37,508 bases of DNA from Paraglomus brasilianum (lineage: Eukaryota). Of the stretch, positions 3,130 to 30,960 are shown piece by piece. Numbering within the stretch: the first letter of the stretch is position 1; the number at the start of each line of letters is the position of its first letter. The position numbers and the translations under genes were made by a program. Location of the stretch: assembly GCA_910592345.1 (NCBI GenBank), contig CAJVPI010000272.1, positions 1-37,508 of the forward strand. The letters are read 5' to 3'. The notes below the pieces were generated by a model. It saw only the letters and a program-made list of their open reading frames with translations, was not told the DNA's origin and made no database searches.

Positions 3130-4885
3130 ATAATGTCTTATCATCAGTATCAATACGTTACACGTCAACATCTTGTAGTTGTTGTGTCTGAGTTCGGGGC
3201 CTGTCAACCCAGTCACTCAGTCCAGAACTGAGACAGGTCCCTGATTGAGGTACAACAATATCACGAATACGTTATTATAAGAATTGTTACAATTAAAAAC
3301 TGTGGCCTACCGCATCGCATTCTTGATAAGTGTTACTGTAATACAAGTCTTTTAAAACATTGCTAATTTTAAATCGGTCATTTTCATCAACACCGTAAAT
3401 AAAAAATTGTTTAGATTGCCTTGTTCTTACCATTTTTTGGACATTACAAACTATCTTTTATTATGGCAAAGGGTGTAGCTATACAATGCGTTTATCGAAT
3501 TGTACGCTTATTGGCGAACGTTTATTTTATAAGACAATGAATAGATTGATGAGAAAAAGGTAACAAATAAACATAATTGAACACACGGCGTAGATCAATG
3601 TGTGTAAAATGTAAATGAACTGTTAAAAAGAGATTTTAATTGGTCGTTCAAACCAATCGTGATATGATAATCACTCCGTATTAGTTTGTGTAATATAAAT
3701 ACTACAGCATTACATAATGAGAGCAAGAAAACAGCAGTATGAAAATACCTAATATGGATAATCATTAAAATATTGTCACTTAAACTAGCCAAATTAAGCG
3801 ATATCTGCAACTTGATCGCCTGCATATTTTCAATCAAGAACAGTGCTTATCGATTGTGCTTGCTTCTTAGTATAATCCAGACGCTTCACACACTATATCT
3901 GCTGTTAAATATTACGCTACTGGCTGGCGGACAAACACTCCGATTATTAGTCATTGCTTTCAGTTATAGATACACGTATTAAATAGTTCAAGGTTTAGGC
4001 ATGACATTACAATATATTCGTTGGAAAGAACGACCGAGCACCCTCATCTGTGTCACTACTAACAAACACTGGCGTCCTGCACCAAAATTTTTTTGGTTGA
4101 ATGCATACAAACTTGAATGAGGATCTTACTGCAGAACTGATATGCATTCAAGACAACTAATTCAAGACGAGCACAGTCCTTTTGATCGTCTAAACTTAAA
4201 CCAAAAAAAAGTTCAGCCTTTCCATGCAGCACATCATGATTGCATTGTCTGAAAAGAAATAGTAATTGACTAGGTCAATGAATAAAGCCGTGCAACATAT
4301 TTAACAGTTTCATATGACGTTTTTCGTCTGACGACAATTCAACAACACTTGCTGTGGAAGCCTAAAAATACACGTATCTAATTTTATCAGCTACATTGTT
4401 ATCTCGACTTTTTTGGTCAAGTGTTACGCTTTATAGTAATTAAATTTTGTGTGCAATGTCTAAAGTAGCTACAGTTGATATCGGCTATAACGCTTGTCTT
4501 CATCGTATAGCTTCTTTGAATATACAAATGCAATATTGAAATAAATCATTTGCTTCAACTTTAACAGTATTACAACACAAACTCTGTCTTTTTTCAGTCG
4601 ATGAAACTGCGTTTTGCATAGCGTTTGATCCAATAACACAATCAAATAAAGTGAATTATTCATTGTTTGCGCTGCACGTTTATTTTGACTTCTTTTTATT
4701 AGTCAATTAATTTTTAGACACTGTTGAAATAATCCTTGTCTTCCCTAAGCCTCAGAACAAGAAACTTCTTATTCTAGTTATATCGCGAATGCCAAGCATT
4801 GACTGTCTATTTTTAACTCTTGCTTACTCCGGTAGTTAAACTATTGTTTGATATTGTGTAACTTATTGTGTGCCTTCCTCGCTTT
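3130..4885 (+). promoter_or_regulatory. Orphan copy of the ~1.5-2 kb upstream region of the SOD-like-fold genes, truncated just before the TATA box
   Basis: Colinear blocks shared with ~7970-9360, ~12500-14750 and the reverse complement of ~18490-20100. Ends at ...GCCTTCCTCGCTTT, where gene-bearing copies continue CACAGCTATATAAA. Confidence 0.7.
3180..3257 (+). mobile_element. 78-bp TGTTG...CAACA element (family A), inserted in the duplicated upstream region
   Basis: Termini TGTTGTGTCTGAG / GTACAACA; core AGAACTGAGACAGGTCCC shared with 17236-17348 and, reversed, the start of 20385; absent from paralogous sites near 12545 and 20050. Confidence 0.7.
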
Positions 4886-5999
4886 ATTACTCGGAATACT
4901 GCTTTCCTTTTCGAATGATTACCTAGTGCAATCGCTCTCGGAACGACGATAACATACAATCTTATCTGATCCCGTTATCGGTAAAAAACGCCGCGTAAAC
5001 AAGGAATCAGAGATGCATACACTTTTTATGGAGCAATTTGATAAGAGATTGCATATTTTCGTGCGTGGTATGTAATGAATCTTTCCGGTATCTTTGCAAT
5101 TTGCTCCGATCACCGAAAATGTGATATGTTTTGATGTTCTGTTTTGGAAATCTTTGGGCTCGAGAATGAATTACCTAAAACAATGTGTAGGGGACGATAT
5201 ACATCTGATTGATCGATTACCAAAGCAGAGTCAGGTACTTGCAGGTACTGTACTCGAATCAATGAATGAGACAACACTAAAGGAAATGGCTATGAAAGAC
5301 GTAAGATTACTTAATAAGATGTATTACATCGAATTGTTGTACAAATGTAAATGTCTATTTTTGGTTACGTTCGCTCGACGCTGATCTAAAGTCACGACAA
5401 CATACATCGAAACAAAGCCTTTGATCTAATATGTAACAACTGACTTTTAAGCATTCTAATTTTTTTTTTTACAATAAACCTTTTTGAATTAGTGTGTCGG
5501 CATAATATAAAGTCAATTTGCAATGACATAATCTAAACTGACAGAGAACAAACACGCACAACAAACAAATACCGGTCGGTGCATGTTCTTAAATGCGTCG
5601 TTACCTTTTAGGAAAATTATATTGAGAATGAACTTGTTTACGAACGAGTTATCTAAACAAGGCAAGGACAACTAAAAATAAACAACGCGAATAAAAATAA
5701 TCGACTCTGTGAGAAAGTAACAAAATTTTCATACTAAAATCAGGATGCCATTTTGATAATGTATTGTTGTCATGAGTTTCTCATTTCTTTTAACCGAGTA
5801 TATGAGGTACCCTTTTTGGCAAAAACGTTAGTATGAGAATACTTCGTGTGCTATTTTTAGCCTGCCGAGTGGAAAGATCAAGAACACTTTCTAAAAAAAA
5901 AGTTGCAATGCTTTATATGGAAATTCTACGTGCGTCTATGACAATAAATGCCTGAGGTATTGGATATATACAATAGTAATATAGGAGCAATTCAGTTGC

Positions 6000-6015
6000 T
6001 CACAGCTATATAAAC
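6000..6015 (+). promoter_or_regulatory. TATA-box core promoter of the KEP gene
   Basis: TCACAGCTATATAAAC 70 nt upstream of ATG 6085; identical 16-mer at 14737-14752. Confidence 0.7.
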
Positions 6016-6084
6016 CATCCTTTCCGCCCTCCTTCATTCCTCATCAACGCAAATACGTTGTCTCGAATACAATCTGAAATAAGC

Positions 6085-6555
6085 ATGACTGCCTATACTC
6101 AACTGTTGCTTGTAGCATTTATTGCTCTCTTCTTTATTCAATTCAACGAAGCATTGCCTGCATCCGACTCTGCCCTCGAAGAACGCTGGAAGGATCCATA
6201 CTATTACTGTTGTTACTACTACTATAATGATAAGAGTGACAAACGGGGTCTTGAAAGAAGATGGGAAAACAAATGTGATGAATACAAACCAGACAAGAGA
6301 GGTTTAGCTGAACGAAATGATGAATTGGTTAAACGTTGGGGCAAGCCATCCTACTACTGCTGCTACTATTATTACGATGAAGACTCCAAGAAACGAGGAT
6401 TGGAAGCACGCAGCTTGGAACAACGCTGGGATGATAATTGCAAAGTCAATAAGCCCGACAAGAGAAGCGAGAAACGTTGGGATGAATGTAAACCAGAAAA
6501 ACGTGGTTTAGAAAAGAGGTGGGATCCGTACTGTTGTTGTTATGAATATGAATAA
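6085..6555 (+). CDS. Secreted Kex2-processed repeat protein (KEP), 156 aa, precursor of Trp-initial Tyr/Cys-rich peptides
   Basis: ATG at 6085 (the ORF-track TTG start at 6058 is upstream). Hydrophobic signal peptide MTAYTQLLLVAFIALFFIQFNEA, then repeats split by KR/RR/LxxR: WKDPYYYCCYYYYNDKSD, WENKCDEYKPD, WGKPSYYCCYYYYDEDSK, WDDNCKVNKPD, WDECKPE, WDPYCCCYEYE. Intronless. Confidence 0.9.
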   Translation: MTAYTQLLLVAFIALFFIQFNEALPASDSALEERWKDPYYYCCYYYYNDKSDKRGLERRWENKCDEYKPDKRGLAERNDELVKRWGKPSYYCCYYYYDEDSKKRGLEARSLEQRWDDNCKVNKPDKRSEKRWDECKPEKRGLEKRWDPYCCCYEYE

Positions 6556-7304
6556 AGTAAGTAAAGTTTTCTTTCATTGTATTATACAATTAAATCAATA
6601 ATAAGATTTCTAATCAACTTGACTCTGGTTTTTTTTTCATAGTTGAGCAACAGATTGTTGAGAAGTAACTCTTTGGTTACTATTTTGAGTCACATCATTT
6701 TTTAAATTAGGCCTTTTGAATTAAGTTATTTTATTCTGCAATTGCATGTTAACACTAGTGTAAATCAATAAATTATTGGGTATTTTTGCGTGCACGTTAA
6801 CTAAATCGTACCTAAAATTGTTGAATGTAAATTTACCGAACAATGTGTGTACATGTCTTTCTTTACAAAGATAATTGAACAAAACAGTATTCGAATTGTT
6901 GTTATTGTCTGCAATATAAAAAGCCTTTAAGTTTGCCAGATTTGTTACAAAACATCGATTTGACTTGCACTTGCCCACGGTAATATTAATAAAGTCACCC
7001 CCGAAGCGGTGGTTACTATCTGGACAATGATTCTAGTTCACATAAACAATTTTCGTTGGTAGTATTTATTATCAAATGAATTTCGTTGACTAAACATGGA
7101 CTTGTTATCTCTGCAATTCTCTCACGTGACATTTTTAAATTCAGAGAAAGCAATACATTTCGGTTTAAGTATACTGTAAGTATCATAATCAAGCTAATTA
7201 ATTTCTAAACCCTAATCAACCATGTTATAGTGCTAATAACAACGAACATATTCATTTTGGTAATATAAATATCTTTTGTTCGACTGTAGTACTGAGATTT
7301 TATG

Positions 7305-7457
7305 GGGTCCGGTTCATTTCATCGACAATCATTTCACCGACAGTACGTTTCACCGACATAAATTTCATCGAAAACCAATGAACAATGTGTCATGTGAAGT
7401 GACTGTCGGTGAAGTGTACTGTCGATGAAATGATTGTCGATGAAATAAATGCCTCCC
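7305..7457. mobile_element. Mutator-like MITE, copy 1 (153 bp)
   Basis: Long inverted arms ATTTCATCGACAATCATTTCACCGACAG / CTGTCGATGAAATGATTGTCGATGAAAT; ends GGGTCCG...TGCCTCCC; imperfect 9-bp TSD GATTTTATG/GATTTTGTT; second copy at 31404-31569. Confidence 0.8.
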
Positions 7458-8807
7458 GATTTTGTTAGCATGTATTACCATTAACCGGCTTATAATGCAA
7501 TGAATGCTATTTCGATATTATAAGGTTGTTCGGATAAACTAACTCATAATCATAGTAAGAGTCAGGGTCAAGAACGTTACGACATGCGGAAAGGGGTGAG
7601 AGTATGAACAGTGACTGCGATACTACGATACTAGCATACCCCTTCGCCAGTGATGTTGCATTATCAACAATCGCATTGATTATTGTTTGTGTCAACGTAA
7701 TCAGACTATTTAAATCTCGTTGTAACGCGAGTCTTGCTAATTTTAAATTGACGTTCGGTTCTACCTTGGTCTTATCACCTGTCATCAACAATGTGAAATG
7801 TGATGACTTGTATGTGCTCAACACTCGATTCAACTATTTGCCATTCACGCATGCAAGAGCTAGTTCCTTTACTATAATAAAGACAGCTTGTACAATAATA
7901 TTTTGTTATCTACAAAATCAGTAAAAGGCAAGCCGAGTGTTTGTGGATTGCATTCTTAGTGGCAAACGAAAATAATAGCTGACAGTAACAAATAAACAAA
8001 GACACCAAATGCAAGATAATCACAATGGAGAATGTGTACATGAAATGTGTTACGCAAAAAAAGTAAAAAAACAATAGTATGAAAATACCTAATATGGATG
8101 ATCGTAACCAAATATTTGTACTGCGGCGGAAAATATGGAATATTACAGACAGTTACTATTTCGCATAATACACTAACGTATTTGACTGTGCTTATCGATT
8201 GTACAGTACATTAGCTCTGGTGAAAAACTCGTAGATTTAAGCAAGGCATAAACACATATTCGTTGTATGTGTCGGGACCAAAAACACTGGCGTACTGCTT
8301 TGGAGGCAAAACTGAACGGATATTCTTAGACAATTGAAAGGAGAACAAACACAAGCGCAATGCCCAAATCAAACCAAATATTTCTAATTGACTGCATGCG
8401 TTCAAACAATATGTGCTCAGCCTTTCTCGTCATTCGATTTTTAATTTTGGAATGTAGCCTACTATAATAGACATTAATCCTGATACAAAAATACAGAATG
8501 AGCGCTTCGTGATTGCATTGTCTGCAAATAAATAGTAAATAACCTGGTCATGAATGAAGCTGTACAACAAATTTAACAGGTTTTAGTTGACATTTTTAGC
8601 CTGACAACAATTTAATGACATTTCCTTGTGTAAACCTGAAAATGCGTATATCCTATTTTTATCACCCCCCATTGCACCTCTTACCTTTTTCGGCCAAAAT
8701 CTATATTTAAAATTAATTAAGTGTTACGTTTTATAGTAGCCACTTTGACTAATTCGGGTCAAATTTGTAAAGTTCGAGACTAACTGCGGTTGGTATCAAC
8801 GAGAACG

Positions 8808-8908
8808 TTTGTCTTTTACTGTATAATTTATTTGAGCAAGCTTGTCTTTTACTGTATAATTTATTGAGTAAGCTTGTCTTTTACTGTATAATTTATTTGA
8901 GTAAGCTT
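8808..8908 (+). repeat. Tandem repeat, ~34-bp unit x3
   Basis: TTGTCTTTTACTGTATAATTTATT(T)GAG(C/T)AAGC three times head to tail; single copy at the paralogous upstream sites (~14410, ~18810 reverse). Confidence 0.85.
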
Positions 8909-9346
8909 TCTTTTCGTCATTAATACGAGTTTGAGCGCAGTTATTGAAATTATTCGTTTCAACGATAACAGCAATATAACATAGACTCGGGTCGCCTTAA
9001 AAATACATTTACCGCTGCAAAAAAACTCTCTTTAATCCAGTGCACAGTTTATCAGTGCAACTGTTTATTCGTATCGCATTCGAGTCAATAACACATCTAA
9101 TAATAAATAAACTCATCCGCCGTTCACTGCCGCACGCATTAATTTGACGGTTTTCTATTGGTCTGATTTAAATTTAGATAATGTTTGAGGAGTAACGCCC
9201 CGTCTTGTCTGTGTACGCGACCTTTTGTCTATATTGTCAATACATTTGTTCTACTAAACCTTCGCTGTCTATTTTTAACTCGTGTATATTCCGTAGTTTA
9301 TAATACTGTTTGATATTGTGTGATATGTTGTGAGCTTTCCTCGTTC

Positions 9347-9361
9347 TCACTGCTATATAAA
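9347..9361 (+). promoter_or_regulatory. TATA-box core promoter of SOD-like-fold gene 1
   Basis: TCACTGCTATATAAA ~130 nt upstream of ATG 9492. Confidence 0.65.
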
Positions 9362-9491
9362 GGGGGGGATCCAAGCTCTTTTTCCACATTGCTCAGGCAA
9401 CGAATTGACGACTTTACAAGAACAAGCTTACAGCAATCGATCCATCTTATAACGATACAATTTACTCTTGCGCTTATTCGAAAACGAAAAC

Positions 9492-10046
9492 ATGAACAAA
9501 ATCGCCTGCTTGATCTTTCTCTTGGTTACCCTTCTCGCCGTGATCTCTAAGCCAGCTGCAGCTGCCGGACTCGAGAAAAGATGGGATAACTGCTGCCCTG
9601 TTGCTCTCTGTGTATTCAAAAAGGGTAGCAGTTTCGACCGACGCAAGACTAAACGTAATACAGACCTGTTTAATGGATTTATTCAATTCACGGAAACGTT
9701 CAACAACCAGTTATATATCAGCGGTTTCTTGGATGTTGAACACGTTCAGAAGGAGGTCGCGGCTGATGATCTTTCACCTCCATTTGATGTACATGTAAAT
9801 AAATGCAACGACGTAAGCTTTGGTAATATCGAAACCGGCCTTGATTTGGACGATGTCGATGATATTTTCGATCTGCCATTCGTCAAAGTTGTTAGCAATA
9901 AGAAAGTTAGCGATGTTGTTGACCAATGCTGTATTGTAGCAAAGGACAAGGGCACAAGCAATCACAAAGTTTTGGGCGTTGCAAAGGTGAAGCAAGCCAT
10001 AAAGTGTAACCCTAACAGCATTGTTTTAGGCAGCGACTTTAATTAA
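9492..10046 (+). CDS. Secreted Cys-rich protein, paralog 1 (184 aa), Kex2 sites, degenerate Cu/Zn-SOD-like beta-sandwich pattern
   Basis: Signal peptide MNKIACLIFLLVTLLAVISKPAAAA, GLEKR|WDNCC, internal TKR|NTD. Motifs VALCVF, GFIQFTE, ISGFL, DVHV, VVDQCCIV, VLGVAKV echo SOD strands (AVAVL, GTVTFTQ, VTGL, GFHVH, IIGRTLVV, RLACGVI), but most His ligands are absent. The CDS is solid; the fold is inference. Confidence 0.85.
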   Translation: MNKIACLIFLLVTLLAVISKPAAAAGLEKRWDNCCPVALCVFKKGSSFDRRKTKRNTDLFNGFIQFTETFNNQLYISGFLDVEHVQKEVAADDLSPPFDVHVNKCNDVSFGNIETGLDLDDVDDIFDLPFVKVVSNKKVSDVVDQCCIVAKDKGTSNHKVLGVAKVKQAIKCNPNSIVLGSDFN

Positions 10047-11389
10047 ATTGAGCAATAGTAGATAGTCTTTTCTTTGTTGTGCTTAATATTATATTATTCA
10101 ATAATTAGTAAAAGAGCTTTCTGCAACGATTAGGATGTGATATATTTTCATAACAATAAATGGTGTATACTTATTGTGCTCTGTGATTTGATAAACTAAA
10201 TGGTCACTGTATATTGTTACTGCGTATTGTATGTATGGCAAAAGCTTTAGACGGTTAATTATCTAAACGCGCTTAAACTCTCACAATTAAGACATCTCGG
10301 AATTGTGTTATAGTGCTCATTCTTCAAGAGGGTTCAACTTCTTTATTTGTTGCTTCCTTTGCTCGACCAAATTTTCCAATTTACTTCAAACTTAATTATT
10401 GTTTAGAGTAAAGTTAGAGTTTTGTGATAAAGTTTTAGTTTAGCAATAGTATTTATTCATAGTTAATTGGTTTAATTCGCTAATAGTAGACATATTGCAT
10501 AGCAGTGTTCTACTTCTTATTACTAGTCAACAATTAGTTTATATTGTCAGATTGGACTATTTATTCTTGCTCACAGCGGCGGTGAAAAGCGTATTCGAAA
10601 CCATTGTTCTTTATAAATCTTTATTATTGCCTTAAAGTCTTACTCGAATGCGTTAAATGACATGTAGGTAGCTTTGCCGTCGTCGCTAGCAATAATAAAC
10701 GCTATTAGGTATTTCTTGTCATAGCAATCTTACATTCATCGACTTTTGTAGTTACGTTGCCATTATTTGTAGACCATACGACGTTTATCTAGATGTTATT
10801 AATTTTCACTGTGGTACGAATAAAAGCAGAAAGCACTGACTATGAAAATTTACAAACGTGGAATATTAAAATTCAAAGTTGTATTAATTATTATGCAACA
10901 TACAAGTTTTTCGAACCTTTAAAGACATGTTTATATATTCGTCGCTTTATTCGCATCTTCTGGTTCATGCATGCTACTCTGGGTATATAGAAATTATGTG
11001 CTGTAGCTCGCAAATTTGCGCCATACGGGTAAAAGGATTTATGCACGTGCAGAATGTACAGACACGTGAATCGTTACCGACAAAAATTCTCACGGACAAG
11101 TGATTTGTCACGCAAACCCCGCATGAACCATGAACAAGGGGTGATGTACAGAGTTTAAGGAAAAGTTAACAATAAAAGTGACACAAACATTGGAGGTCTT
11201 CAGACCCGTATTTCCTTATTATTTTTTTTTGTGAAACAGCAAACCGCCCGCTTTGATGGTTTGATGGAGACAAAGACAACGCCCTCATACTTGTCGAAAT
11301 TAGGTAGAATGCTTACAGGTACGCTACCATGTCTTTTTCTATGAACATTCTTGCTGAGAATATCGTAATACAATTATAACTCTTGCTCA

Positions 11390-11610
11390 TTTGTTTTTAA
11401 ACTCTTAGTTGAAGTACTGTTGATACTGTTTGATTTCCTTTCTTTCACTGCTATATAAATTCTCTTCCTCAACAACAAATCGACAACTTCACAAGAACAA
11501 GTCTTACAACGGCAGACCTTTGTTGTAACGATACAAATTACTTGTCTGTCATGGTTACCATTATTGTGTGATCTCTACACCAATTACTGCTGCCAGTTTT
11601 GAAAGGATAG
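11390..11610 (+). pseudogene. Truncated 5' remnant of a SOD-like-fold gene (core promoter, 5'UTR, broken signal peptide)
   Basis: TCACTGCTATATAAA at 11445-11459; UTR ACAAGAACAAGTCTTACA...TAACGATACAA; GTGATCTCTACACCAATTACTGCTGCCAGTTTTGAAAGG (VISTPITAASFER vs VISTPVAAAGLEK in paralog 3); no intact start or body. Confidence 0.75.
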
Positions 11611-11865
11611 CCAGTATAATTTCTATCCTTCGAAAAACAAGTTTATTCCAACCTAATCTTGATCGAACTATGATATTCTCAGTAACTCAACCCCGTCCGT
11701 GTAGTCTTAATACACAGTCAACCATGTTAATATACTTCTTTCGAATGGTCATCAAGTCCCATTTGACGGATAAACGATATACTATATAATGTAGTTATCT
11801 GCTTTCAACTATTAAAATTACACTACTGTGATCAAATTACTTGACTTGTATATAGCTGCCTCATT

Positions 11866-12210
11866 GCTATACTCAACTGTTGTGAGTAGCCCTTGTTGCT
11901 CTCTTCTTCTTTGTTCAATCCAACGATGCGCCTTTCCCGCATCAGACGCTTCCTGGAAAAGCGCCGGAATAGGAAGGATCCATAATATTATTTCTGTCAC
12001 TTACTATTGTTCGAGTGGCAAGCAAAGTCTTGAGAGAGCAATGTTCAGATAAGAGAGATTTGGCCGAACAAAATTGATCTAAATTGGGGAAAATGATTTT
12101 ACTACTGCTGTCATTATTATTACGATAAAAGCTCCAAGAAACGAGACTTGGAAGAACGTGGCTTAGAATAATGATGGGATAATAAGTGAAAGTCTATAAG
12201 TCCAGCAAGG
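11866..12210 (+). pseudogene. Pseudogene of the KEP precursor
   Basis: CTATACTCAACTGTTG...TTGCTCTCTTC...GGAAGGATCCATA aligns to 6093-6200. 12085-12189 reads WGK*FYYCCHYYYDKSSKKRDLEERGLE**WDNK* vs WGKPSYYCCYYYYDEDSKKRGLEARSLEQRWDDNC. Confidence 0.85.
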
Positions 12211-13572
12211 CAACAATCATTGGTAAATTCTTACTAAGATTATTCTCATTGTAATATTACTTAAGTGGAAATTAACGATCAAATAGACAACCCTAAGCGC
12301 TGGTCACAATTTACACAAATGGTTTTATAGTTTATGTGGATAAAATCGTTGGAAATACCAGCTGCTCTTACAACTCAAACTGACAATAACTTTGTCGAAC
12401 AAACAGCAAATATACAATCTCGTTGACCATTATTGCTAGGGCTATGCAAATTATTATCCTATAACATTTTATCTATCGCATTATATCAATAAACGTTGTT
12501 TAGTATTAAGAGTAATGTCTTGTCAATACGTTGCACGCCAACATCTTTGTTAATAGAACGTTCAATTCGACTGTAGAACCGAACACAACATTTCGTCAAG
12601 ACACTGACTATTATTATAACTGTGGCTTATTGCATATCGGAATTCGGGATAATTATAAGGCCTATTATTATGCATATCCTCAATGATTATAAATAAAAAT
12701 TATTTTTGGATTGTTATTTTGTCTTTGTTCTTGCCAATTTATAGACATTACCTTCAAATACAAACTATTGTTGATTATGGCGAAAGGCGTAGCTATACAA
12801 TTCTGCAAATGCGTGAATGACGAATAGATGAATCATGCGTTTATGATTGTATTCTTATTGGTAACTTGTATTCCATTATAAAAGGCAGACAATGACTATG
12901 TAGCCGTATGACTTGTGTAATGTGTTACATAAATTTTGTTGAAAACGGCAGTATGAAAATGCCTAATATGGATCATCATCCATTAAAATGTTGTCACAAA
13001 CTAGTCAAATGCAAAATTGTTACACAATACAACTTTCGCGTACGTAGCAGATCGTCTACCGTATTTTCATAAGAACAGTGATTATCGATGCAGTTATTAC
13101 TTGTGCTGCATGATCCAGACTATATCTGCCGTTGAATGTTACGCTACTTACTGACAGACAAACACTCCGATTGTTAGATCAGTAGATACACGTATTAAAT
13201 AGTTTAGTATATTCATTCGTTGGAGAGATAGTATAAGACTTGGAATATCGACTGAGCACCCTCATCTGTGTCACTATTAATGAACACTGGCGCACTGCAA
13301 ACTTTATTATTTTTAGTACTTACTAGTTGAATGCAAACTCGAATCTGTAGATAACTAGATAAGCATTCAAGACGAGCACAATCCCAGTTTTATTGATCGT
13401 GAAAATAATGTTTAGCCTCAGTCAGTAACAATTATCGTTAAAGGGCTCAAGTATGATAAGGAGATTTACACCGTCGAATTGATTATTGCATGTGTCTCCA
13501 AATCATAAACCTCTTTAAGTTTTGTTGTAAGCACAAGTCTTTCAAAAACATCATGATCGATTTCCTTGCCTT

Positions 13573-13595
13573 ATCATCATCATCATCATCATCAT
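13573..13595 (+). repeat. (ATC)n microsatellite
   Basis: About seven ATC units. Confidence 0.8.
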
Positions 13596-14736
13596 GTAAC
13601 AAAAATTATTTTTAGATTGCATTATCTCAACAATCGACTTGTCTCTTGTTGACATCCTTTCACTCACACAAATTCTATCTTTGATTATGCATGAAGAAAA
13701 GATGAGATCGTGCGTTTGTAGATCGGTGTTCGTGGATCGGTATTCATGGCCTGGGTACGAAAAAATAGACAGGATGAGGACACAATTAAATCAATTCAAA
13801 CCTAGCCTTATAGACAGGCGTAAATACTTTATTAAGGATATGTGTAACATGTGTTACTTAATAATAATAATTAAGCAGAGTATGAAAATACTTAATATGG
13901 TAGTACATAAAAGTCCAAACTAACCAAATTGATACTCGCGACATAAAATCAATGTACGCTATGTATTTCGTTTAAAAACAGTGCATATCAATTGTACTCG
14001 GTGGTTCACACAGCTATACATATTGATCATTCACAGCTTACGTTCCTTTGAGAGACAGCATAACATTGAATGAGCACTCTCATTCGTGTCAGGACCAATG
14101 AACGCTGATAGGCCACTAGATTTAATATTACTACTCTAAGCATAGAAGCCCAATTCCTTCAGACGTCTGTGCTGTGGCGTTGAAATGCAAAATAAATTTA
14201 TTTTTTTCCCATGCATTTGTCATTCGATTATCAAACCTTGAAACGCAGCATTCATGAACAAATTTGTATCGCCGAAAATTCTGTTCGGAAATCTAAAAAT
14301 ACTCATTCTATTTTTATGAATGCTGTCTCGACTTTTTTGTAAAAACTTTATGGTAATTACTTAGATCAGATTTTGTGCAAGTCTAAGACTAGCCACTACT
14401 AAGAACGCTTATCTTTTACTGCATAGTTTACTCGGATGGGTTTTTTGCGAGTGCAGTCATTGAAATTGTTTCAACAATAACAGCATTATAACACAAACGC
14501 TGTTCTTCTTTTATCAATAACACATCAGATTGCAAGTAAACTTATCCACCGTTTCCTGCCGCATTGATTAAGGGTAACACCTTGCTTGTGTACGCGACCC
14601 TTGTTTTCCCAAAGCCTTAAAATAATAACGTTGTACTGCTTACTATATTGTGAATGCGTTTGTTAACTGTCTATTTTTAACTCGTGCATATTCTGCAGTT
14701 TAAAATACTATCTGATATTGTATGCCTTCCTCGCTT

Positions 14737-14752
14737 TCACAGCTATATAAAC
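14737..14752 (+). promoter_or_regulatory. TATA-box core promoter of SOD-like-fold gene 2
   Basis: TCACAGCTATATAAAC, identical to the KEP promoter 16-mer; mirrored at 18480-18495 (-) for gene 3. Confidence 0.7.
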
Positions 14753-14890
14753 GAGGAGATCCAAGCTCTTCTTCCACATCGCATCGACCACAGCGACTCC
14801 GACAAGTTTACAACAAGGCTTACGACAATCGATCCATCTTATAACGATACAGTTTACTCTTCTACTCGAAAACGAAAACAATCCATCAAA

Positions 14891-15424
14891 ATGAGCAAAA
14901 TCGTCTGCTTGACCTTTCTCTTGGCTATCATTCTCACTGTGATCTCTCCAACCGCGGCTGCCGGACTTGAGGAAAGATGGCGCAATCATCAAAATAATAA
15001 TTGTTGTCCAGTCGCTATCTGCGAATTCGAGAAGGGTGACCCCTTCATACATAAACGCAATACAAACCCGTTTGATGGATTTATTCAATTTACAGAAACG
15101 TTTAACAACCAGCTGTTTGTCTCCGGTTTCTTGGATGCAGAAAACTTTCAGAAGGATACCACTGCTGGCAAACAAGGCCTTGACGTTCACGTAGCCGATT
15201 GTAACCTCAAAAATATTGATGGCGTACTTGATTTGGACGATGTCGATGACATTTTCGATAGGCCTTTCGTTGGCGTTATCCCCAACAAGAAAGTTCGTCA
15301 ACTTGTTGGCCAATGTTGTATTGTGGCAGATGATAAACAAAATGATCAAATTATTGCCGTTGCAAAGGTGAAGCAAGCCATTCGGTGTGGGCGTAACAAA
15401 AAGATTCTTATAAAGGATCTCTAA
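14891..15424 (+). CDS. Secreted Cys-rich SOD-like-fold protein, paralog 2 (177 aa)
   Basis: ATG 14891 in AAAATGAG context downstream of the TATA box; signal peptide, GLEER|WRNHQNNNCC, internal HKR|NTN; same 7 Cys as paralogs 1 and 3. Confidence 0.88.
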   Translation: MSKIVCLTFLLAIILTVISPTAAAGLEERWRNHQNNNCCPVAICEFEKGDPFIHKRNTNPFDGFIQFTETFNNQLFVSGFLDAENFQKDTTAGKQGLDVHVADCNLKNIDGVLDLDDVDDIFDRPFVGVIPNKKVRQLVGQCCIVADDKQNDQIIAVAKVKQAIRCGRNKKILIKDL

Positions 15425-15799
15425 TTAATTAGTTGATAGGCTTTTTCCCTTGTTGTGCTTAACTTTATATTTATTATTACATATATGTTTGTATTTGTAA
15501 AGAGCGTTCTCTCGTGCAAAGATTAGAATGTGATAGTATATTTTGTAAAACAATAAAATTTACTATTGTGCCAGCATAATTGCAGATAAACGATCGGTGT
15601 ATGCGCATTCTACTTTGAAATTTGATAAACTAAACTGTTACTGTATATTGTGCACATATAGCAATATAGCAGTATATAATATTTAAATTTTAGCTGTAGA
15701 CGGTCCCAAATAGCAGGAATATCAGCAAGCATGATAGTGCTAAAAGCTTTCAAATAATGATTGGTAAGTGGATTAAAAGGGAGGACTAATTATTTCCAG

Positions 15800-17438
15800 T
15801 GAAAAACTTCTCGACAAGGAGAGCTTTTGAAATAAATGATCGAACGAAGGAATGTTACACTCGTGAGGAGTGATAGTCAAAAGCACTTTTTATTCGACGA
15901 TCACTAGCGGTATTTTGTACTATCTTTAATTTTGCAGTTCACATACAATGGATTGTTTTTGCTAATGACAGACGACTGCAAAAACTAGCAAACTCTGTTT
16001 ATGATAAAGGCCTTTGCAGGAAATTTTTTTCATAAATACAGAATATGCCTACATAACAGTGGTTCCGCCCCTTATTTCTAAACCAACAATTAATTTGTGT
16101 CGTCAGATTAGACTATTGTTAAATTTTGACGTTCTATCTTACAGCAGTGAAAGCGTAATCCATTCTTTTTAATATGTCTTGGCTGTTTATACATGCTTAC
16201 TGAACTAAGATTGAGAACATTAATAAAGCGTATCCTCTATCTAACATTGGTTATGGCGTAATGCAATTTAAAACTACTATACACTACACTAATGTCGTAA
16301 CAACCAGATGTTATGATGCATCAAGTATTAACAGTCAATACTTAACCACAGGAGCCGAATTTGTGTCGAGTCGCTTTGCCGTAGATAAATTATTAATAAG
16401 CAATCATTAATTGTAATAACAAACATTTCTGCGGTGGTCAGAATTGTGACGTCTACCTCTATATTATAGTATTACACTAATACGGGTTCTTCATGTCCTA
16501 ATAAAGCATTATTCACACATATACAACCTTTGCCAGACTATGGAAACATATTTGTATCTTTGTCTTTCATATATGAGCGATCGATTCTGTTTGATATACT
16601 GAACTACCGAGTTTGGTGCTTTTAATATCCTGACAATTTCATTACAACATGGACAAGAGTGTATACACACACAGCAATATCGACTAATTTGTTTGTAGCT
16701 TTCTATTAACGCCTGCAGAGTTCAAATGTCCACTACCAAGAATACTTTTTTCTGACAATAGGATTGATGAAAAACCGACATTCGCTAACACCCTTCAATC
16801 AAATATCGGCTTGTGCACTATACCGATAAAATATTATTTAAACGCAATTTCTAAACTTCAACATGTTATATAAGAACAAACGTATTCGTTTGGCCGCAAT
16901 AGAACACTGTATATGTAATACCGATGCAAAATTTTGTTTAAATGAGCGTATTGTTATTACTCAATACCAACAAGCATTTAAGATGGGGAAATAAACAAAA
17001 ATAGCGCATTTTGAGAACGTTCTGACAAACTGATATCAAGGATAAATTATTGGTTTGCGGGGATAAGAACGTTTGGTTCATTGCGAAATATATATTTCTA
17101 AATTCGGGAAATAGGACGATTACAGTCACTTAGAATATAACAAAGTTGTCCGTTTGGACGGGAACAGCCTCTTCGGAAAGGGCTTAATTATGATAAAAAA
17201 ATTTTACACCAGTCGCATTTATTATTGCATGTGTCTGTTGTGTCTGAGAGTTTGAGTGAGACTTGTCTTAGTCCAGAATCCAGTTGTCTCAGTTCGAAGC
17301 CAGACACTCAATCTAGAACTGAGACAGGTCCCCAACTAAAGTACAACACTCCAATAACTGAAAAACTTCTCAACAAGTAGAGTTTTTGAAATAAATGATC
17401 GAACGAATTACACTCATGAGGAGTGATAGTCAAAAGCA
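15800..17438 (+). repeat. ~80-bp direct repeat (15800-15884 and 17360-17438) in the spacer of the inverted duplication
   Basis: GAAAAACTTCTC(G/A)ACAAG...TTTTGAAATAAATGATCGAACGAA...TTACACTC(G/A)TGAGGAGTGATAGTCAAAAGCA in both. Confidence 0.8.
17236..17348 (+). mobile_element. 113-bp TGTTG...CAACA element (family A)
   Basis: Same termini and core as 3180-3257; empty paralogous site ATTATTGCATGTGTCTCCAA at 13482-13501. Confidence 0.75.
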
Positions 17439-17798
17439 ATTTACAAATATATATTTATTCACGCTTGCTGACATTCTACTATTTGGGCGCTCGAATAAAA
17501 TTCTGTTGAATAACAAGCCGCGAATTCCAAGACACTTTCAACCGCCTACAGCTAAAATTTAATACTATACACAGCTATATTGCTATATGTGCACAATATA
17601 CAGTAACAGTTTAGTTTATCAAATTTCAAAGTAGAATTCGTTTATCTGCAATTATGCTGGCACAATAGTAAATTTTATTGTTTTACAAAATACACTATCA
17701 CATTCTAATCTTTGCACAAGAGAATGCTCTTTACAAATACAAACATATATGTAATAATAAATATAAAGTTAAGTACAAGGGAAAAGACTATCAGCTAA

Positions 17799-18338
17799 CT
17801 AGAGATCACTTATAACGATTTTTTTGTTACGCCCACACCGAATGGCTTCCTTCACCTTTGCAACAGCAATAATTTGATCATTTTGATTATCATCTGCCAC
17901 AACACAGCATTTGCCAATAAGTTGACTAACTTTCTCGTTGGGGAAAACGCCAACGAAAGGCTTATCGAAAATGTCATCGATGCTGTCTAAATCAAGTCCG
18001 TTTTCAATATTTTGGAGGTTACAATCGGTTACGTGAACGTCAATGCCTTGATTATCAGCAGTGGTATCCGACTGAAAGTTTTCTGCATCCAAGAAACCGG
18101 AGACAAACAGCTGGTTGTTAAACGTATCAGTAAATTGAATAAATCCATCAAACGGGTTTATATTGCGTTTAGCGTGGCGTCGGTGATCGAAGGGGTCACC
18201 CTTCTCGAATTCGCAGATAGCGACTGGACAACAATTATTATTTTGCCATTTTTTCTCAAGTCCGGCAGCCGCGACTGGCGTAGAGATCACAGTGAGAAGG
18301 GTAGCCAAGAGAAAGGTCAAGCTGACGATTTTGCTCAT
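17799..18338 (-). CDS. Secreted Cys-rich SOD-like-fold protein, paralog 3 (179 aa)
   Basis: Signal peptide, GLEKK|WQNNNCC, internal AKR|NIN; close paralog of 14891-15424; TATA at 18481-18488 (-). Confidence 0.88.
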   Translation of the reverse strand: MSKIVSLTFLLATLLTVISTPVAAAGLEKKWQNNNCCPVAICEFEKGDPFDHRRHAKRNINPFDGFIQFTDTFNNQLFVSGFLDAENFQSDTTADNQGIDVHVTDCNLQNIENGLDLDSIDDIFDKPFVGVFPNEKVSQLIGKCCVVADDNQNDQIIAVAKVKEAIRCGRNKKIVISDL

Positions 18339-19675
18339 TTTGATGGATTGGTTTTCGTTTCGAGTAGAAGAGTAAACTGTATCGTTATAAGATGGATCGA
18401 TTGTCGTAATCCTTGTTCTTGTAAACTTGTCGGAGTCGCTGTGGTCGATGCGATGTGGAAGAAGAGCTTGGATCTCCTCGTTTATATAGCTGTGAAAGCG
18501 AGGAAGGCATACAATAGTTTAACTACCGGAATATGCAAGAGTTAAAAATAGACAGTCAAAATTTGGTAGAACAATGCATTTGCAATATAATTAGAGTATA
18601 AACAGAGTGTTACACAATTTCGACATATTAATTGACCAATAAAAAGAAGTCAAAATAAACGTGGCGGCGCAAACAATGAGTGATTCACTTTATGTTATCG
18701 AATCGAATGCTATACGAAACGCAATTGCATCGACTGAAAAAAGACGGAGTTTGCGTTAAAGTTGAAGCAAATAATTTCAATATTGCGTTTGTATCCATAA
18801 AAACTTGTTCAAATAAACTATACAATAAAAGACAAGCGTTATAGTCGATATCAACTGTAGCTAGTTTTAAACTTGCACAATAGTTAATTAGAAAGTAGTT
18901 ATTATAAAGCGTAACACTTGACCGAAAAAAGTCGAGACAAGAATGTTTCTGATAAAATTAGATACGTGTATTTTTAGGCTTCTACAAGGAAGTGTCGTTA
19001 AATTGTTGTCAGACAAAAAAAGTCGATTGGATCTGTTGTACAGCTTCATTCATCAGAATTTGGCAGTCTGAATGACGGAAAGGCTGAATTTTTTGGTTTA
19101 AGTTTAGACAATCATGTGTGCTCTCATCTATTAAAATTTGCATCCAAACAGTGAGTACTAAAAATAAATAAAGTTTGGTAGCAGTGCGCCAGTGTTTCTA
19201 GTAGTGACACAGATGAAGGTGTTCAGTCGATATTTCCGAGTCTTATGCTATCTCTCCAACGAATATACTGTAATGTCATGCCTAACTGTATCTATAACTG
19301 GAAGCCGATTGGAGTGTTGGTCCGTCGGTAGCGTAATGTTTAACGGATATAGTGTGTGAAGCGTCTGGATCATGCATCATGTAATAACTGCAAGTAATTG
19401 AGAAGCAAGTACAATCGATAAGCACTAAAAATATGGTAGGCGATCTTATGCGAAAGTTGCGTTGTGTAATAATTTTGCATATTCGATATTCCCCAGTACT
19501 AATTTGGCTAGATAATCGTACATATTAGTATCTTGCTTCGAATATCCAACTGAAAATCATTTTTAACTTGCACTTACACAATGGACAATTACTGCATATC
19601 ATAATTGATCTACGCCGCGCCGTAGTTACTTTTTTCTCATCCGCCTACCTTTTTTAATGAAATAAAGTTCGCTAA

Positions 19676-19728
19676 GAAGCACACAATCCAGAAGCACACA
19701 ATCCAGAAACACACAATCCAGAAACACA
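19676..19728 (+). repeat. 15-bp tandem repeat AGAA(G/A)CACACAATCC x~3.5
   Basis: Directly visible. Confidence 0.8.
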
Positions 19729-20384
19729 TGATTCATCTATTCGTCATTCACGCATCTGCAGAATTGTATGGCTACGCCTTTTTGCCATAATTAAAAATAG
19801 TTTGCCTAATCACTTTCTGATCAACTTATTTGCTACTTTATTCACTTTTTCCCGAATTCCGATAATATGCAGTAGGCCACAGTTTTTAATTGTTATGATA
19901 TCATTTTGCAGAATTTTCTATTTATAAATGCTTAAAATTATATAATTTTTTTAATAGTCAGTGTCTTGACAAAATAATGTATTCGGTACTACAGTCCAAT
20001 AAAATGTCCATTAACAAAGCATATGTGCAAGACGAATACATTCGTTATTAATAGATGTCGACGTGTAACGTATTGATACTGATGATAAGACATTCCGCGC
20101 GATTTTCTAAAAACCGATAAGCGTTTTTAGATAAAAATGTCACGAAATAGTAATTTGTATAATCCCAGTGATAGTTTATGTTTATGTTCAACGAGATTGC
20201 TGTTTATTTAATACTGATAAATCTATTGTCAGTTTTTGAGTTGTAAGCAGCAGACTTACCAGCTTAGGATTGTCTATTTAATTATATCGTTAATTCCTAC
20301 TAACTTGATTTGCCGAAACTAATAATAATAAGGGTTATCGTATATTTTGTATAACGCATACTATTCCAGTTTAAGTAATATTAC

Positions 20385-21299
20385 TGTTGTACCTCAGTTG
20401 GGGACCTGTCCTTAGTTCTGAGTTCTGGACTGGGTGACTGGGTTTACAGAACCATTACGAATGATTGCGGGTAACTAGAGCAAGCCAGTGACAGGTGAGA
20501 ATGTGTGTATGAGAGAGATAAAAAGAACAAGAGAGTGTAAGAAAGAAATAAAGCCAGAATGAGAAATCAAAAGTGAGAGAGTGAGAAAGTAATAGCAAAG
20601 AGTGTGATCGCGATAAAGAGAGGAGGTGAGCAAAGGAGTGGTATTGAGAGTGGTATTGAGAGTGGTAAGCAAATGAGAGACTGAAAGTGTGTTAGAAGGG
20701 GAGTGAGAGAATGATTAAAAGGCAAGAGAGCGATTGAGAGAACGAAAGAGTAAGAACTTGAAAGCGAATAAGAGTGTGATTGAAAGAGTGCGAGTGATTA
20801 CAAGAGAGAGAGGGCAGGAGGGTGAGTTTGAAAGAGATCAAAAGACAGAGGGGAGATCAAGAGTGCGATCACTAGAGAAAAGAGTAACTAAATAAAAGTG
20901 AAGAGAACGGGAGAGTGATTGGGAGAGTGAGAAAAAGAGCAAGAGTGTAAGAGATTAAGAAAGTTATCGAAGAAGCAAAAGGGGAAGATGGAATTAACAA
21001 TATGTAAATTCCATGAGCTTTGGATTCTCGGTTGTTGTGAAGATTGATTTCGCGTTTTCGAAAAATCAAGCCAATCGGTATATGCAAAGTTCAAATCATA
21101 CTTAATATTCTGTGTCAATTTTTTAACACACGCATCGACAACAGTTACGATTAATAAATGTTTAAATACTATGAGCATGGGATTCTTGGCTGTTGAGTAG
21201 TTAGTTATTGACGACGAAAATCGATTTTGCGTTTTGAAGAATCAAGCCAATCGGGATATAAATATTCGCGCTCCATGTACTAGTGGCGCAGCTACAACA
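20385..21299 (-). mobile_element. Longer TGTTGTA...TACAACA element (family A end plus GA-rich interior); possible solo LTR or parent of the short copies
   Basis: 20385-20450 is the reverse complement of the family A 3' end; strongly purine-skewed low-complexity tract ~20490-20990; internal ~60-bp duplication (~21020 and ~21180); candidate far end TACAACA at 21293-21299 (uncertain); no TSD. Confidence 0.5.
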
Positions 21300-24314: not shown

Positions 24315-25160
24315 TGCATTACTGTATTATTACCTCTCTGTTCGACCATGGTATGAGTTTGTTATCACAATCACTTAAATGGTAATCTACAGCAAATAAA
24401 GTAGCAATCGACTTTGTTGACAACTTTCGCTTTCACATGCTTCTTTCTGTATTTGGTAAACAAGAATGATTTGTTAAGCGACTATTGCACTGATGCGTGG
24501 CAAAAGAAAAATTCATATCGCTTACCACGTTAGACGAATACAAATTTGTACAAGATTCTCTGTCGTATACTGCCTCAGAAAGCATAGATAGAAGATCTCT
24601 CAATCTGGCGGGTAATTAAGCGAGGGCAGCAAATCAAATATATGTATAATAAAATCTTAATCAGGTGTACTACAAAATGTGTAGGTGGTACATGTCTGAT
24701 CAAATATAAGTAGAAAGCAACAATTAAGTGAAAGTTTTCGCTTAACGAAGAGGCTTGTGCTAATGAATGAAAGTGTAAATTGGTCATTTATTGGCTAGAG
24801 TGCGAATTGGCTAGAAAACACCAAATTGAGGATATTACATATTATTTTAATTAGTTTTTTTATCTCTTAAGTGGTTACTATTTGAGTGCTTGAGACCCGA
24901 ACTAATAATAGTCAATTGATAAGTCATTATTATATCACCCATAAAAGTTATTACCATGCCGACCGTGTGCGTGAGAAAAAAAAATATATATATAAGCTCC
25001 ACTGTTTTCAATTTACAGTAAAAATTTACGTCAATAACCTTTCTCAATGCTATTCCAAAAAAGGGCCATAATACGTCATTTTACTAAGAAACCTGGTTGC
25101 ATATTACACATAATAATAAATAGAAGCGCTTTTGGAACCGATCACATTCTCTCACGTAAC

Positions 25161-30681: not shown

Positions 30682-30960
30682 GCCGTGCGCGTGAGAAAAA
30701 ATTTGTTGTCAATAACTTTCTCAACTATTCCAAAAAAGAGCCATTGTACTGCACAAACATGGTTGCATATTACAAATAAGTAGAAGAACGAATCACATTC
30801 TCATGCGCAGCATGTCCAAAAAATTTTATACTCAGCATATTTAACTGTTAATGTCTTATAGATGTCCGAAGAAGTGGATTTTGACGGATCTAAAATCCTT
30901 AATATTAATATTAATTGCTGATTGCAACGGACGGGCTTGGGTGATCTACTTCAATTTATC
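30682..30960 (+). pseudogene. Heavily deleted third BTB-BACK-TLDc copy
   Basis: Upstream blocks CCGTGCGCGTGAGAAAAAA, CTATTCCAAAA, GGTTGCATATTA, ATCACATTCTC; ATG at 30812 (MSKKFYTQH); jumps to the intron end (TTATAG) and fragments GGATCT...TTGCAACGGACG...TTGGGTGATCTACTTCAATTT. Confidence 0.8.

What the first reader, a model, noticed from the sequence alone, without database searches (positions are those of the whole stretch)
6000..18495. Candidate new secreted-peptide system: Tyr/Cys-rich KEP precursor arrayed with SOD-like-fold proteins sharing its processing motif
Seen: the order is orphan upstream region - KEP - SODL1 - SODL remnant - KEP pseudogene - SODL2 >< SODL3. The KEP-to-SODL spacing is similar in both units (~2.9 and ~2.7 kb), so the pair seems to have duplicated together. 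Both gene types give products starting with Trp after an L-E-x-R/K site (KEP GLEKR|WDPYCCC; SODL1 GLEKR|WDNCC). Known: fungal KEPs include RiPP (dikaritin) precursors that cluster with DUF3328/UstYa oxidases or tyrosinases, and plant burpitides use copper-dependent BURP cyclases on Tyr/Trp repeats; none of these enzymes is in this window. Inference: the SODL proteins are dedicated partners of the peptides (modifier, carrier, or co-assembling wall/effector subunit). I know of no described KEP + SOD-like module, but could not search.
Basis: partly seen in the sequence, partly recalled or inferred. Interest (0 to 1): 0.9.

Follow-up and report, generated by a model that had tools for sequence, protein, structure and literature searches.

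The report
Peptide precursor amid copper-less SOD-fold genes
In a Paraglomus-type root-symbiotic fungus, an expressed gene whose product is likely cut into small tyrosine- and cysteine-rich peptides sits among three genes for secreted-type proteins predicted to have the shape of superoxide dismutase without its copper site; the two families share a promoter element and a leader motif and are likely co-regulated, but nothing yet shows that they act on each other.

Summary
The anatomy is real: KEP 6085-6555, three intact SODL genes, a SODL remnant, a KEP pseudogene and an orphan upstream block. KEP, SODL1 and SODL2 are covered in 4 of 4 rhizosphere RNA runs laid; the KEP intron is spliced in 3. 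SODL has the Cu/Zn-SOD fold (pLDDT 86; Z 9.9 to Candida Sod5) but only one conserved His, so a copper-dependent modifier is unlikely. All named relatives of both families are from Paraglomus. For a link: an exact 15-base core promoter (5 hits, at KEP and every SODL copy that keeps its TATA box) and a L-x-x-[KR]-W...CC leader whose window spellings are absent from two other AM secretomes. Against a dedicated module: 0 of 15 SODL genes in two named Paraglomus assemblies share a contig with the KEP (fragmented assemblies), and the 'equal spacing' is SODL's own upstream block, not a co-duplicated spacer. New: the KEP keeps 10 Cys in 8 of 8 sequences; SODL keeps seven, one likely unpaired. Best reading: two undescribed, likely co-regulated secreted families, not enzyme and substrate.

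The parts
3132..4890 (+). Orphan copy of the SODL upstream block, cut just before the TATA element; no SODL coding sequence follows
   Evidence: 68% to SODL3 upstream over 1,025 bases and 69% to SODL2 upstream over 389 bases; one soil contig spans 3424-5317
6000..6014 (+). Core-promoter element TCAC[AT]GCTATATAAA of the KEP, shared with the SODL copies
   Evidence: 5 exact matches in the window and none else at up to 2 mismatches; 0.43 expected by chance
6085..6555 (+). KEP: 156-aa secreted-type precursor with six Trp-initial Cys-bearing peptides (three Tyr-rich CC/CCC, three single-Cys), 10 Cys in all
   Evidence: ORF; 10 Cys in 8 of 8 sequences, all 10 invariant in a 6-row alignment; RNA cover in 4 of 4 runs laid
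6557..6642 (+). 86-base GT..AG intron in the KEP 3' UTR
   Evidence: Joint 6556>6643 in 3 of 4 RNA runs
7305..7460 (.). Palindromic high-copy repeat (MITE-like) between KEP and SODL1
   Evidence: Self-inverted, also near 31401-31556; bin depth 35-187 against mostly 0-6 in neighbouring bins
9347..9361 (+). Core-promoter element of SODL1
9492..10046 (+). SODL1: 184-aa secreted-type protein, predicted Cu/Zn-SOD barrel, 7 Cys, no 3-His copper site; second KR site in the loop after strand 1
   Evidence: RNA cover in 4 of 4 runs
11374..11610 (+). SODL remnant: promoter (element at 11445-11459), 5' UTR and decayed start of the signal peptide
11867..12223 (+). KEP pseudogene without detectable promoter or 3' end; frameshifts and stops
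   Evidence: 69% to the KEP over 381 bases; alignment and three-frame reading; flanks not homologous to the KEP's
12250..14890 (+). SODL2 upstream block (element at 14737-14751), homologous to the SODL3 upstream and the orphan block
14891..15424 (+). SODL2: 177 aa, 7 Cys
   Evidence: RNA contigs with 1-2 differences in 4 of 4 runs
17799..18338 (-). SODL3: 179 aa, 7 Cys, inverted duplicate of the SODL2 lineage
   Evidence: 88% DNA over 1,061 bases; dS 0.09, dN 0.10 to SODL2
18339..20380 (-). SODL3 upstream block (element at 18481-18495); no KEP copy at its far end

Best explanation
This is a cluster of two secreted-type gene families of a Paraglomus-type mycorrhizal fungus, an expressed precursor likely cut by Kex2 into six Trp-initial, Cys-bearing peptides and three proteins predicted to have a superoxide-dismutase fold without its copper-binding histidines, which share a 15-base core promoter and a leader motif and are therefore likely co-regulated surface or secreted proteins rather than an enzyme and its substrate. 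Mechanism. Shown: both families are transcribed and the KEP mRNA is spliced; the KEP's 10 Cys are invariant; SODL has one conserved His and seven Cys. Inferred: the KEP precursor forms five disulfides in the ER, Kex2/Kex1 clip out the charged spacers, and the product is a disulfide-tied, multi-chain, Tyr-rich assembly that coats the wall or surface (works like the Ustilago Rep1 repellent peptides; not a member of that family). Inferred: SODL is a non-catalytic binding or structural barrel with three internal disulfides (C75-C116, C10-C117, C4 or C5 to C142) and one spare Cys in its W-x-CC leader that most simply links SODL to SODL. Inferred: the array grew by tandem and inverted copying of SODL with 1.5-2.6 kb of its upstream DNA; a KEP copy was caught once and decayed.
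For: Fold: model pLDDT 86.4, pTM 0.83; the top 14 VIA rows are all SOD or CCS chains, best Candida Sod5 Z 9.9, rmsd 3.2, 123 aligned; Foldseek's best rows are SODs but none reaches E 0.001. No copper site: one conserved His column (30 of 32); Val, Ala or Lys in 32 of 32 at the strand-7 position mapped by eye to the SOD His; 11 of 34 family rows (three are fragments) hold a single His; Sod_Cu matched by 0 of 28. Cys pattern: 7 Cys in 28 of 32; C75 and C116 lost together once, C4, C5 and C142 lost together twice (one clade). KEP: 10 Cys in 8 of 8 sequences, also where Kex2 sites or Trp are lost. Expression: near-identical RNA contigs on KEP, SODL1 and SODL2 in 4 of 4 runs from 4 studies, spliced joint in 3 of 4, and 18 of 30 bins without cover in any run as a control for DNA. 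Promoter: 5 exact hits; 0 of 13 other TATATAA[AG] sites have the prefix; present in 2 of 2 environmental SODL loci that include a promoter; similarity disappears when the element is masked. Dispersal: 15 named SODL genes on 15 contig lengths, none the KEP's.
Against: Co-regulation rests on one element that could be a general strong promoter of Paraglomus; only four other upstream regions of the window were controls and no genome was available. The RNA runs were found with the KEP and SODL1 stretch, so their cover is by choice, and contigs give no level or timing. D69-x-H71 is kept in 31 and 30 of 32 rows on the strand that carries the SOD metal site, so an unusual metal site is not excluded. 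The disulfide pairs come from co-loss and strand order, not from coordinates. The KEP model is uninformative (pLDDT 51), so the multi-chain product and the surface role are inference by analogy. Divergence does not exclude co-duplication: KEP versus pseudogene 13 of 38 four-fold sites differ, SODL1 versus SODL2 pS 0.45.
Confidence: 0.47

Rival explanations
1. Chance neighbours: a KEP lies in a duplication-prone stretch of secreted genes; the shared TATA element and LExR-W leader are general features of strongly expressed Paraglomus secreted genes, and the two families have unrelated jobs.
For: 0 of 15 named SODL genes share a contig with the KEP homologue. The SODL1-like P0002 lies on a 19.3-kb contig, while at most 8.3 kb could lack both KEP and SODL2 if the window's spacing held. 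Spacers not homologous near the KEP (35 of 100 shuffles reach the score). Leu at P4 and Arg at P1 are the general Kex2 preference (PMC8528282, passages). The two families share only 14 profile columns (probability 42). The second KEP copy decayed while SODL2 is intact and expressed.
Against: LEKRW, LEKKW, LEERW and LERRW occur 0 times in the tables of 872 R. irregularis and 2,633 G. rosea predicted secreted proteins (PMC5293756 supplements). The 15-base element marks only KEP and SODL copies in 37.5 kb. The assemblies are fragmented, and a high-copy repeat between KEP and SODL1 is a likely contig break.
Confidence: 0.25
2. Dedicated physical partners: SODL's spare Cys in the W-x-CC leader forms mixed disulfides with KEP peptides (or SODL carries them), giving a two-component secreted assembly; the two leaders and promoters may descend from one 5' cassette.
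For: Odd, conserved Cys count in SODL with the spare Cys in the KEP-like motif. Trp after the leader in 23 of 34 rows down to about 30% identity. A second KR site in all three window SODLs would free a 25-residue Trp-initial, three-Cys chain that resembles a KEP peptide. Same promoter element. KEP and SODL 5' coding DNA align better than codon shuffles in global mode (0, 6 and 9 of 300).
Against: The KEP has an even, invariant 10 Cys and needs no partner. A SODL homodimer explains the spare Cys as well. One KEP against at least 10 dispersed SODL paralogues in P. brasilianum. Local alignments of the 5' ends are significant for SODL2 only, and global scores can reflect shared signal-peptide composition.
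Confidence: 0.15
3. The KEP peptides are signals (pheromone- or effector-like), released singly; SODL is a separate effector family.
For: Trp-initial, Cys-containing peptides from Kex2 precursors are a feature of ascomycete alpha-type pheromones, and Tyr-rich KEPs are noted in R. irregularis (PMC6339444, passages).
Against: Six different peptides, three with a single Cys, on a fixed 10-Cys frame; no STE13-type X-A/X-P dipeptide after the sites (sequence); pheromone precursors repeat one unit (recalled).
Confidence: 0.08
4. New RiPP system: SODL is a copper-dependent oxidase that cross-links Tyr or Trp of the KEP cores, in place of DUF3328 or BURP.
For: Tyr-rich cores (17 Tyr); fold of a copper enzyme; conserved D-x-H; no known cyclase on the contig.
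Against: One conserved His where Cu/Zn and Cu-only SODs use four or three (numbers recalled); no conserved linkage; 78% of fungal KEPs have no DUF3328 neighbour (PMC7329392), so its absence calls for no substitute.
Confidence: 0.05

Closest known systems
Kex2-processed repeat proteins (KEPs; Le Marquer 2019 PMC6339444, Umemura 2020 PMC7329392), including the Tyr-rich KEPs of Rhizophagus irregularis
   Same: Signal peptide, repeated units between KR/RR and LxxR sites, Tyr-rich products, AM-fungal host, no DUF3328 neighbour (like 78% of KEPs).
   Different: Two alternating unit types on an invariant 10-Cys frame rather than one repeated core; named relatives only in Paraglomus; YCCY, CCYYY, YCCCY and 'Paraglomus' not found in Umemura's held supplement text.
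SOD-like secreted proteins of R. irregularis, structural sub-community C18b (Teulet et al., bioRxiv 10.1101/2022.12.16.520752)
   Same: Secreted AM-fungal proteins with a predicted superoxide-dismutase-like structure.
   Different: No Rhizophagus name among the sequence hits; whether C18b lacks the ligands or has the W-x-CC leader could not be seen (supplements closed); no link to KEPs in the passages read.
Candida albicans Sod5 (PDB 4n3t) and fungal Cu-only extracellular SODs; Gigaspora rosea GrSP2450 as a true AM secreted Sod_Cu
   Same: Same barrel (Z 9.9, rmsd 3.2, 123 residues); secreted.
   Different: HxH reads D-V-H, the strand-7 His is Ala or Val, no Pfam Sod_Cu match, a different set of seven Cys, Kex2-type leader.
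Ustilago maydis Rep1 repellents (PMC3133707, search listing only)
   Same: One precursor processed into many short peptides; proposed analogue for a surface-coating role.
   Different: Rep1 forms amphipathic amyloid fibrils; no sequence comparison was made; the KEP here is Cys- and Tyr-rich.
Dikaritin (ustiloxin-type) RiPP clusters
   Same: Kex2-cut precursor with Tyr in the cores.
   Different: No DUF3328 or tyrosinase on the contig; cores not near-identical; neighbours are pseudo-SODs.

Membership tests
KEP (Umemura 2020 definition) | N-terminal signal peptide | tested here: met
   Hydrophobic N-terminus seen in the sequence and a helix at 2-23; SignalP itself was not run
KEP (Umemura 2020 definition) | Three or more repeats of 8 aa or more between dibasic sites | tested here: met
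   Two classes of three imperfect units (13/20, 8/10, 5/8; 7/13, 6/8, 7/9 identities); the published scoring was not re-run
KEP (Umemura 2020 definition) | Actual Kex2 cleavage into peptides | not testable with these tools
   Needs peptidomics
Dikaritin RiPP cluster | DUF3328/UstYa (and tyrosinase) gene near the precursor | tested here: not met
   0 of 107 ORFs of 66 aa or more match; short exons could be missed, and the contig starts 6 kb left of the KEP
Dikaritin RiPP cluster | Tyr-containing cores | tested here: met
   17 Tyr in the pro-protein
Dikaritin RiPP cluster | Aryl-ether macrocycle in the product | not testable with these tools
   Needs MS/NMR
Cu/Zn or Cu-only superoxide dismutase | Greek-key SOD barrel | tested here: met
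   Top 14 VIA rows are SOD/CCS, Z 5.8-9.9; Foldseek best E 0.002
Cu/Zn or Cu-only superoxide dismutase | Three or four His copper ligands (numbers recalled) | tested here: not met
   One conserved His column, 30 of 32; 11 of 34 rows have one His in all
Cu/Zn or Cu-only superoxide dismutase | Pfam Sod_Cu (PF00080) match | tested here: not met
   0 of 28 at E up to 1; an Atlas feature hit to a Sod_Cu cluster scored 0.82, a lead only
Cu/Zn or Cu-only superoxide dismutase | Dismutase activity or metal binding | not testable with these tools
   D69-x-H71 conserved; needs assay
R. irregularis SOD-like community C18b | Secreted-type AM-fungal protein with SOD-like predicted structure | tested here: met
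R. irregularis SOD-like community C18b | TM-score of 0.6 or more to C18b members | not testable with these tools
BURP-domain peptide cyclase | BURP domain | tested here: not met
   No BURP match for SODL or any window ORF; the fold is a SOD barrel
Conserved precursor-plus-partner gene module | Adjacency kept in other genomes | tested here: inconclusive
Conserved precursor-plus-partner gene module | Co-duplication of precursor, spacer and partner | tested here: not met
   No homology between the KEP and pseudogene flanks (35, 25 and 46 of 100 shuffles reach the score); the pseudogene's 3' flank matches SODL3's upstream (score 131, shuffles at most 28)
Conserved precursor-plus-partner gene module | Physical interaction | not tested

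The most novel reading that the evidence does not exclude
KEP and SODL are two arms of one Paraglomus-specific secreted system born from a shared 5' cassette (core promoter, signal peptide, LExR|W-x-CC). The precursor is clipped into a five-disulfide, multi-chain Tyr-rich unit, and a dead SOD barrel docks onto it covalently through its one spare Cys, building a wall coat or effector complex: a peptide-plus-pseudoenzyme assembly unlike any described RiPP or KEP.
Probability: 0.15. Interest if true: 0.78.

Novelty: new variant of a known kind. Interest (0 to 1): 0.42.

Why it matters
Paraglomus is an early-diverging AM lineage and its secretome is barely described. The locus gives two concrete, expressed, undescribed families: a KEP whose invariant 10 Cys suggest an insulin-like 'fold, then clip' product rather than free repeats, and a pseudo-SOD family with at least 10 copies in one genome. 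It also gives a candidate core-promoter element for an AM fungus. If the covalent partnership held, it would be a new way to use Kex2 peptides and a repurposed SOD scaffold. If not, it is still a useful catalogue entry and a warning that neighbours of a KEP need not be its enzymes.

Tried and rejected
No whole genome was held, so genome-wide tests of the promoter element and of KEP/SODL copy number were not possible. The Atlas search with the KEP did not complete, and a second-look VIA job was not accepted. The KEP structure model had pLDDT 51 and was not searched. A profile search of PDB sequences with the SODL alignment gave only chance rows, best E 0.29. The one metagenome scan gave 3 SODL loci of 1.0-1.5 kb, too short to test linkage. 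No soil-DNA contig piece listed bridges KEP to SODL1 (789 pieces not shown). The remnant and the pseudogene had no RNA cover and SODL3 only divergent pieces or depth under 1 in 4 runs; this does not show silence. Co-duplication from spacing was rejected. Promoter homology beyond the core element was rejected (19-85 of 100 shuffles once masked). Common descent of the 5' coding ends stayed inconclusive. An MDA-type inverted chimera for SODL2/SODL3 was rejected because the copies are 88% alike. The hit P0038 (1,048 aa, repetitive) was dropped as chance; P0026, P0037 and P0041/P0043 (N-terminally cut or near-duplicates) were left out of the 34-row survey, and P0028, P0031, P0034 and P0056 out of the 32-row tree (29 of these rows plus the three window proteins). 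Earlier-finding look-ups by sequence and place found nothing. Two papers on SOD ligands were not held, so ligand numbers are recalled. The peptide table of PMC6339444 was not seen (its second file holds 1,644 characters), so a similar R. irregularis KEP there cannot be excluded.

Full report
Setting. The window equals the 37,508-base contig listed for its own proteins. It is about 35% GC, and every named homologue of both gene families is from Paraglomus brasilianum or P. occultum. I therefore call the organism Paraglomus-type. No whole genome was held.

Observation. All elements exist in the stated order: orphan upstream block, KEP 6085-6555, SODL1 9492-10046, a SODL promoter remnant, a KEP pseudogene 11867-12223, SODL2 14891-15424 and inverted SODL3 17799-18338. 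Four soil metagenomes from three studies cover 26, 29, 27 and 20 of 30 bins, and single contigs cross the remnant/pseudogene and pseudogene/spacer junctions with 1 and 0 differences, so the array is not an assembly artefact. I laid 4 of the 6 RNA runs listed. All four, from four studies, hold near-identical contigs on KEP, SODL1 and SODL2; three show the KEP 3'-UTR intron spliced (GT..AG, 6557-6642); 18 of 30 bins have no cover in any run. The runs were found with the KEP-SODL1 stretch, so only the SODL2 cover is unselected, and contigs give no expression level.

The KEP. Splitting at dibasic and LxxR sites gives six Trp-initial, Cys-bearing peptides in the order A-B-A-B-B-A: A units are Tyr-rich with CC or CCC, B units carry one Cys. 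The Cys total is 10 in 8 of 8 sequences examined, including relatives that lost a Kex2 site or a Trp. All 10 Cys are invariant in the six-row alignment, against 4 of 6 Trp and 9 of 14 Arg. The Cys frame, not the cleavage pattern, is the most conserved feature. I infer a precursor that forms five disulfides and is then clipped into a multi-chain unit. The model was uninformative (pLDDT 51) and there is no Pfam match. The search returned 5 clusters; identity is 98% to the P. brasilianum protein and 77% to the P. occultum one.

SODL. A 28-row alignment gave a confident model (pLDDT 86.4). Against 48,161 PDB representatives the top 14 rows are SOD or CCS chains, best Candida Sod5 (Z 9.9, rmsd 3.2, 123 aligned; first unrelated row Z 5.3). 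Foldseek agrees in kind, but with no E under 0.001. The copper site is not there: one His column is conserved (30 of 32), and the strand-7 position is Val, Ala or Lys in 32 of 32. By eye, the FSYHVHEF and GRSIVIH motifs of a true Gigaspora secreted Sod_Cu (printed) correspond to PFDVHVNK and DQCCIVA here. That SODs need three or four His is recalled; two papers on it were not held. D69-x-H71 is well conserved, so an unusual metal site remains possible. Seven Cys are kept in 28 of 32 rows. C75 and C116 are lost together in P0035; C4, C5 and C142 together in P0036 and P0055. This implies three internal pairs and one spare Cys in the W-x-CC leader. All three window SODLs also have a second KR site in the loop after strand 1. 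The family is expanded: 10 named genes in P. brasilianum and 5 in P. occultum. An Atlas feature search points to unnamed Mucoromycota clusters (0.92 and 0.90), and SOD-like secreted proteins form sub-community C18b of the R. irregularis secretome (bioRxiv 10.1101/2022.12.16.520752; passages and section 5; supplements closed). SOD-like secreted proteins in AM fungi are thus known in kind.

Are they linked? Against. P0002 groups with SODL1 (100/96) and P0007 with SODL2 (97/86). P0002's contig is 19.3 kb, while at most 8.3 kb could lack both KEP and SODL2 at the window's spacing, so the full array is not conserved there. KEP-SODL1 adjacency alone could still be hidden by a contig break at the high-copy repeat, and P0002 (82.5% to SODL1) may be a paralogue. 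The equal spacing is not evidence of co-duplication: the pseudogene's 3' flank is SODL's own upstream block (score 131 to SODL3's, 59 to the orphan's; shuffles at most 29), and it does not match the KEP's 3' flank (35 of 100 shuffles). Age does not exclude co-duplication (13 of 38 four-fold sites against pS 0.45). L at P4 and R at P1 are the general Kex2 preference (PMC8528282, passages), and P1 is Lys in 13 of 23 motif-bearing SODL rows.

Are they linked? For. TCAC[AT]GCTATATAAA occurs exactly five times, before the KEP, the three SODL genes and the remnant, with no further hit at two mismatches (0.43 expected). None of 13 other TATATAA[AG] sites has the prefix. The 14-base core is in 2 of 2 environmental SODL loci that include a promoter. 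The similarity is confined to the element. The leader L-x-x-[KR]-W is kept in 23 of 34 family rows, and LEKRW, LEKKW, LEERW and LERRW are absent from the R. irregularis and G. rosea secretome tables (PMC5293756; passages and supplement searches). A profile comparison finds just this 14-column match. Tests for common descent of the 5' ends were mixed. Whether element and leader are general in Paraglomus could not be tested.

Known systems. No DUF3328, tyrosinase or BURP gene was found in 107 ORFs, but only 22% of KEPs have a DUF3328 neighbour (PMC7329392; passages, sections 13 and 14, supplement search). Tyr-rich KEPs are noted in R. irregularis (PMC6339444; passages and supplement searches, peptide table not seen). 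KEP peptides detected in agaricomycetes were linear and minimally modified (PMC9769878; abstract). Rep1 is cited from a search listing only. PMC9816061, PMC12037060 and PMC7960929 were read as passages and added nothing specific. Ten searches found no KEP plus SOD-like module and no description of either Paraglomus family; subscription journals are mostly not covered. One earlier AI note (e1-7199062, unchecked) describes a ligand-less SOD fold in another fungus.

Verdict. Most likely (0.47) these are two undescribed, likely co-regulated secreted families in a duplication-prone array: a disulfide-framed KEP and a pseudo-SOD. Chance neighbours 0.25, covalent partners 0.15, signal peptides 0.08, copper modifier 0.05. 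New variant of a known kind; interest 0.42.

Noticed in passing
window 33848-35194 +: Intronless 448-aa PSDC + PS_Dcarbxylase gene in DNA of about 51% GC against about 35% background; best PDB matches are PsiD-like L-tryptophan decarboxylases (9jer E 2e-77, 8x4q 4e-50), far above E. coli-type phosphatidylserine decarboxylase chains (E 7e-8). Possibly horizontally acquired; 15 kb from SODL3 and probably unrelated to it.
   Followed up: partly
window 25047-26673 + and 28751-30208 +: Two duplicated BTB-BACK-TLDc genes, 82% alike in DNA over 1.8 kb, with a third short fragment near 30694-30957.
   Followed up: no
window 7305-7460, 31401-31556; 3201-3260, 17297-17348, 20382-20449; 21039-21259: Three small high-copy repeat families (MITE-like), seen as depth peaks in soil metagenome contigs.
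   Followed up: no
window 14891-15424 + versus 17799-18338 -: SODL2 and SODL3 have dN/dS of about 1.0 (dN 0.10, dS 0.09), against 0.26-0.59 for the other nine pairs: relaxed or diversifying selection after the inverted duplication.
   Followed up: partly
window 35836-36294 -: 152-aa ORF without a Pfam match; not examined further.
   Followed up: no
window 20480-20990: Purine-rich low-complexity stretch (GC skew 0.44 in 20001-21000) with raised depth in metagenome contigs.
   Followed up: no
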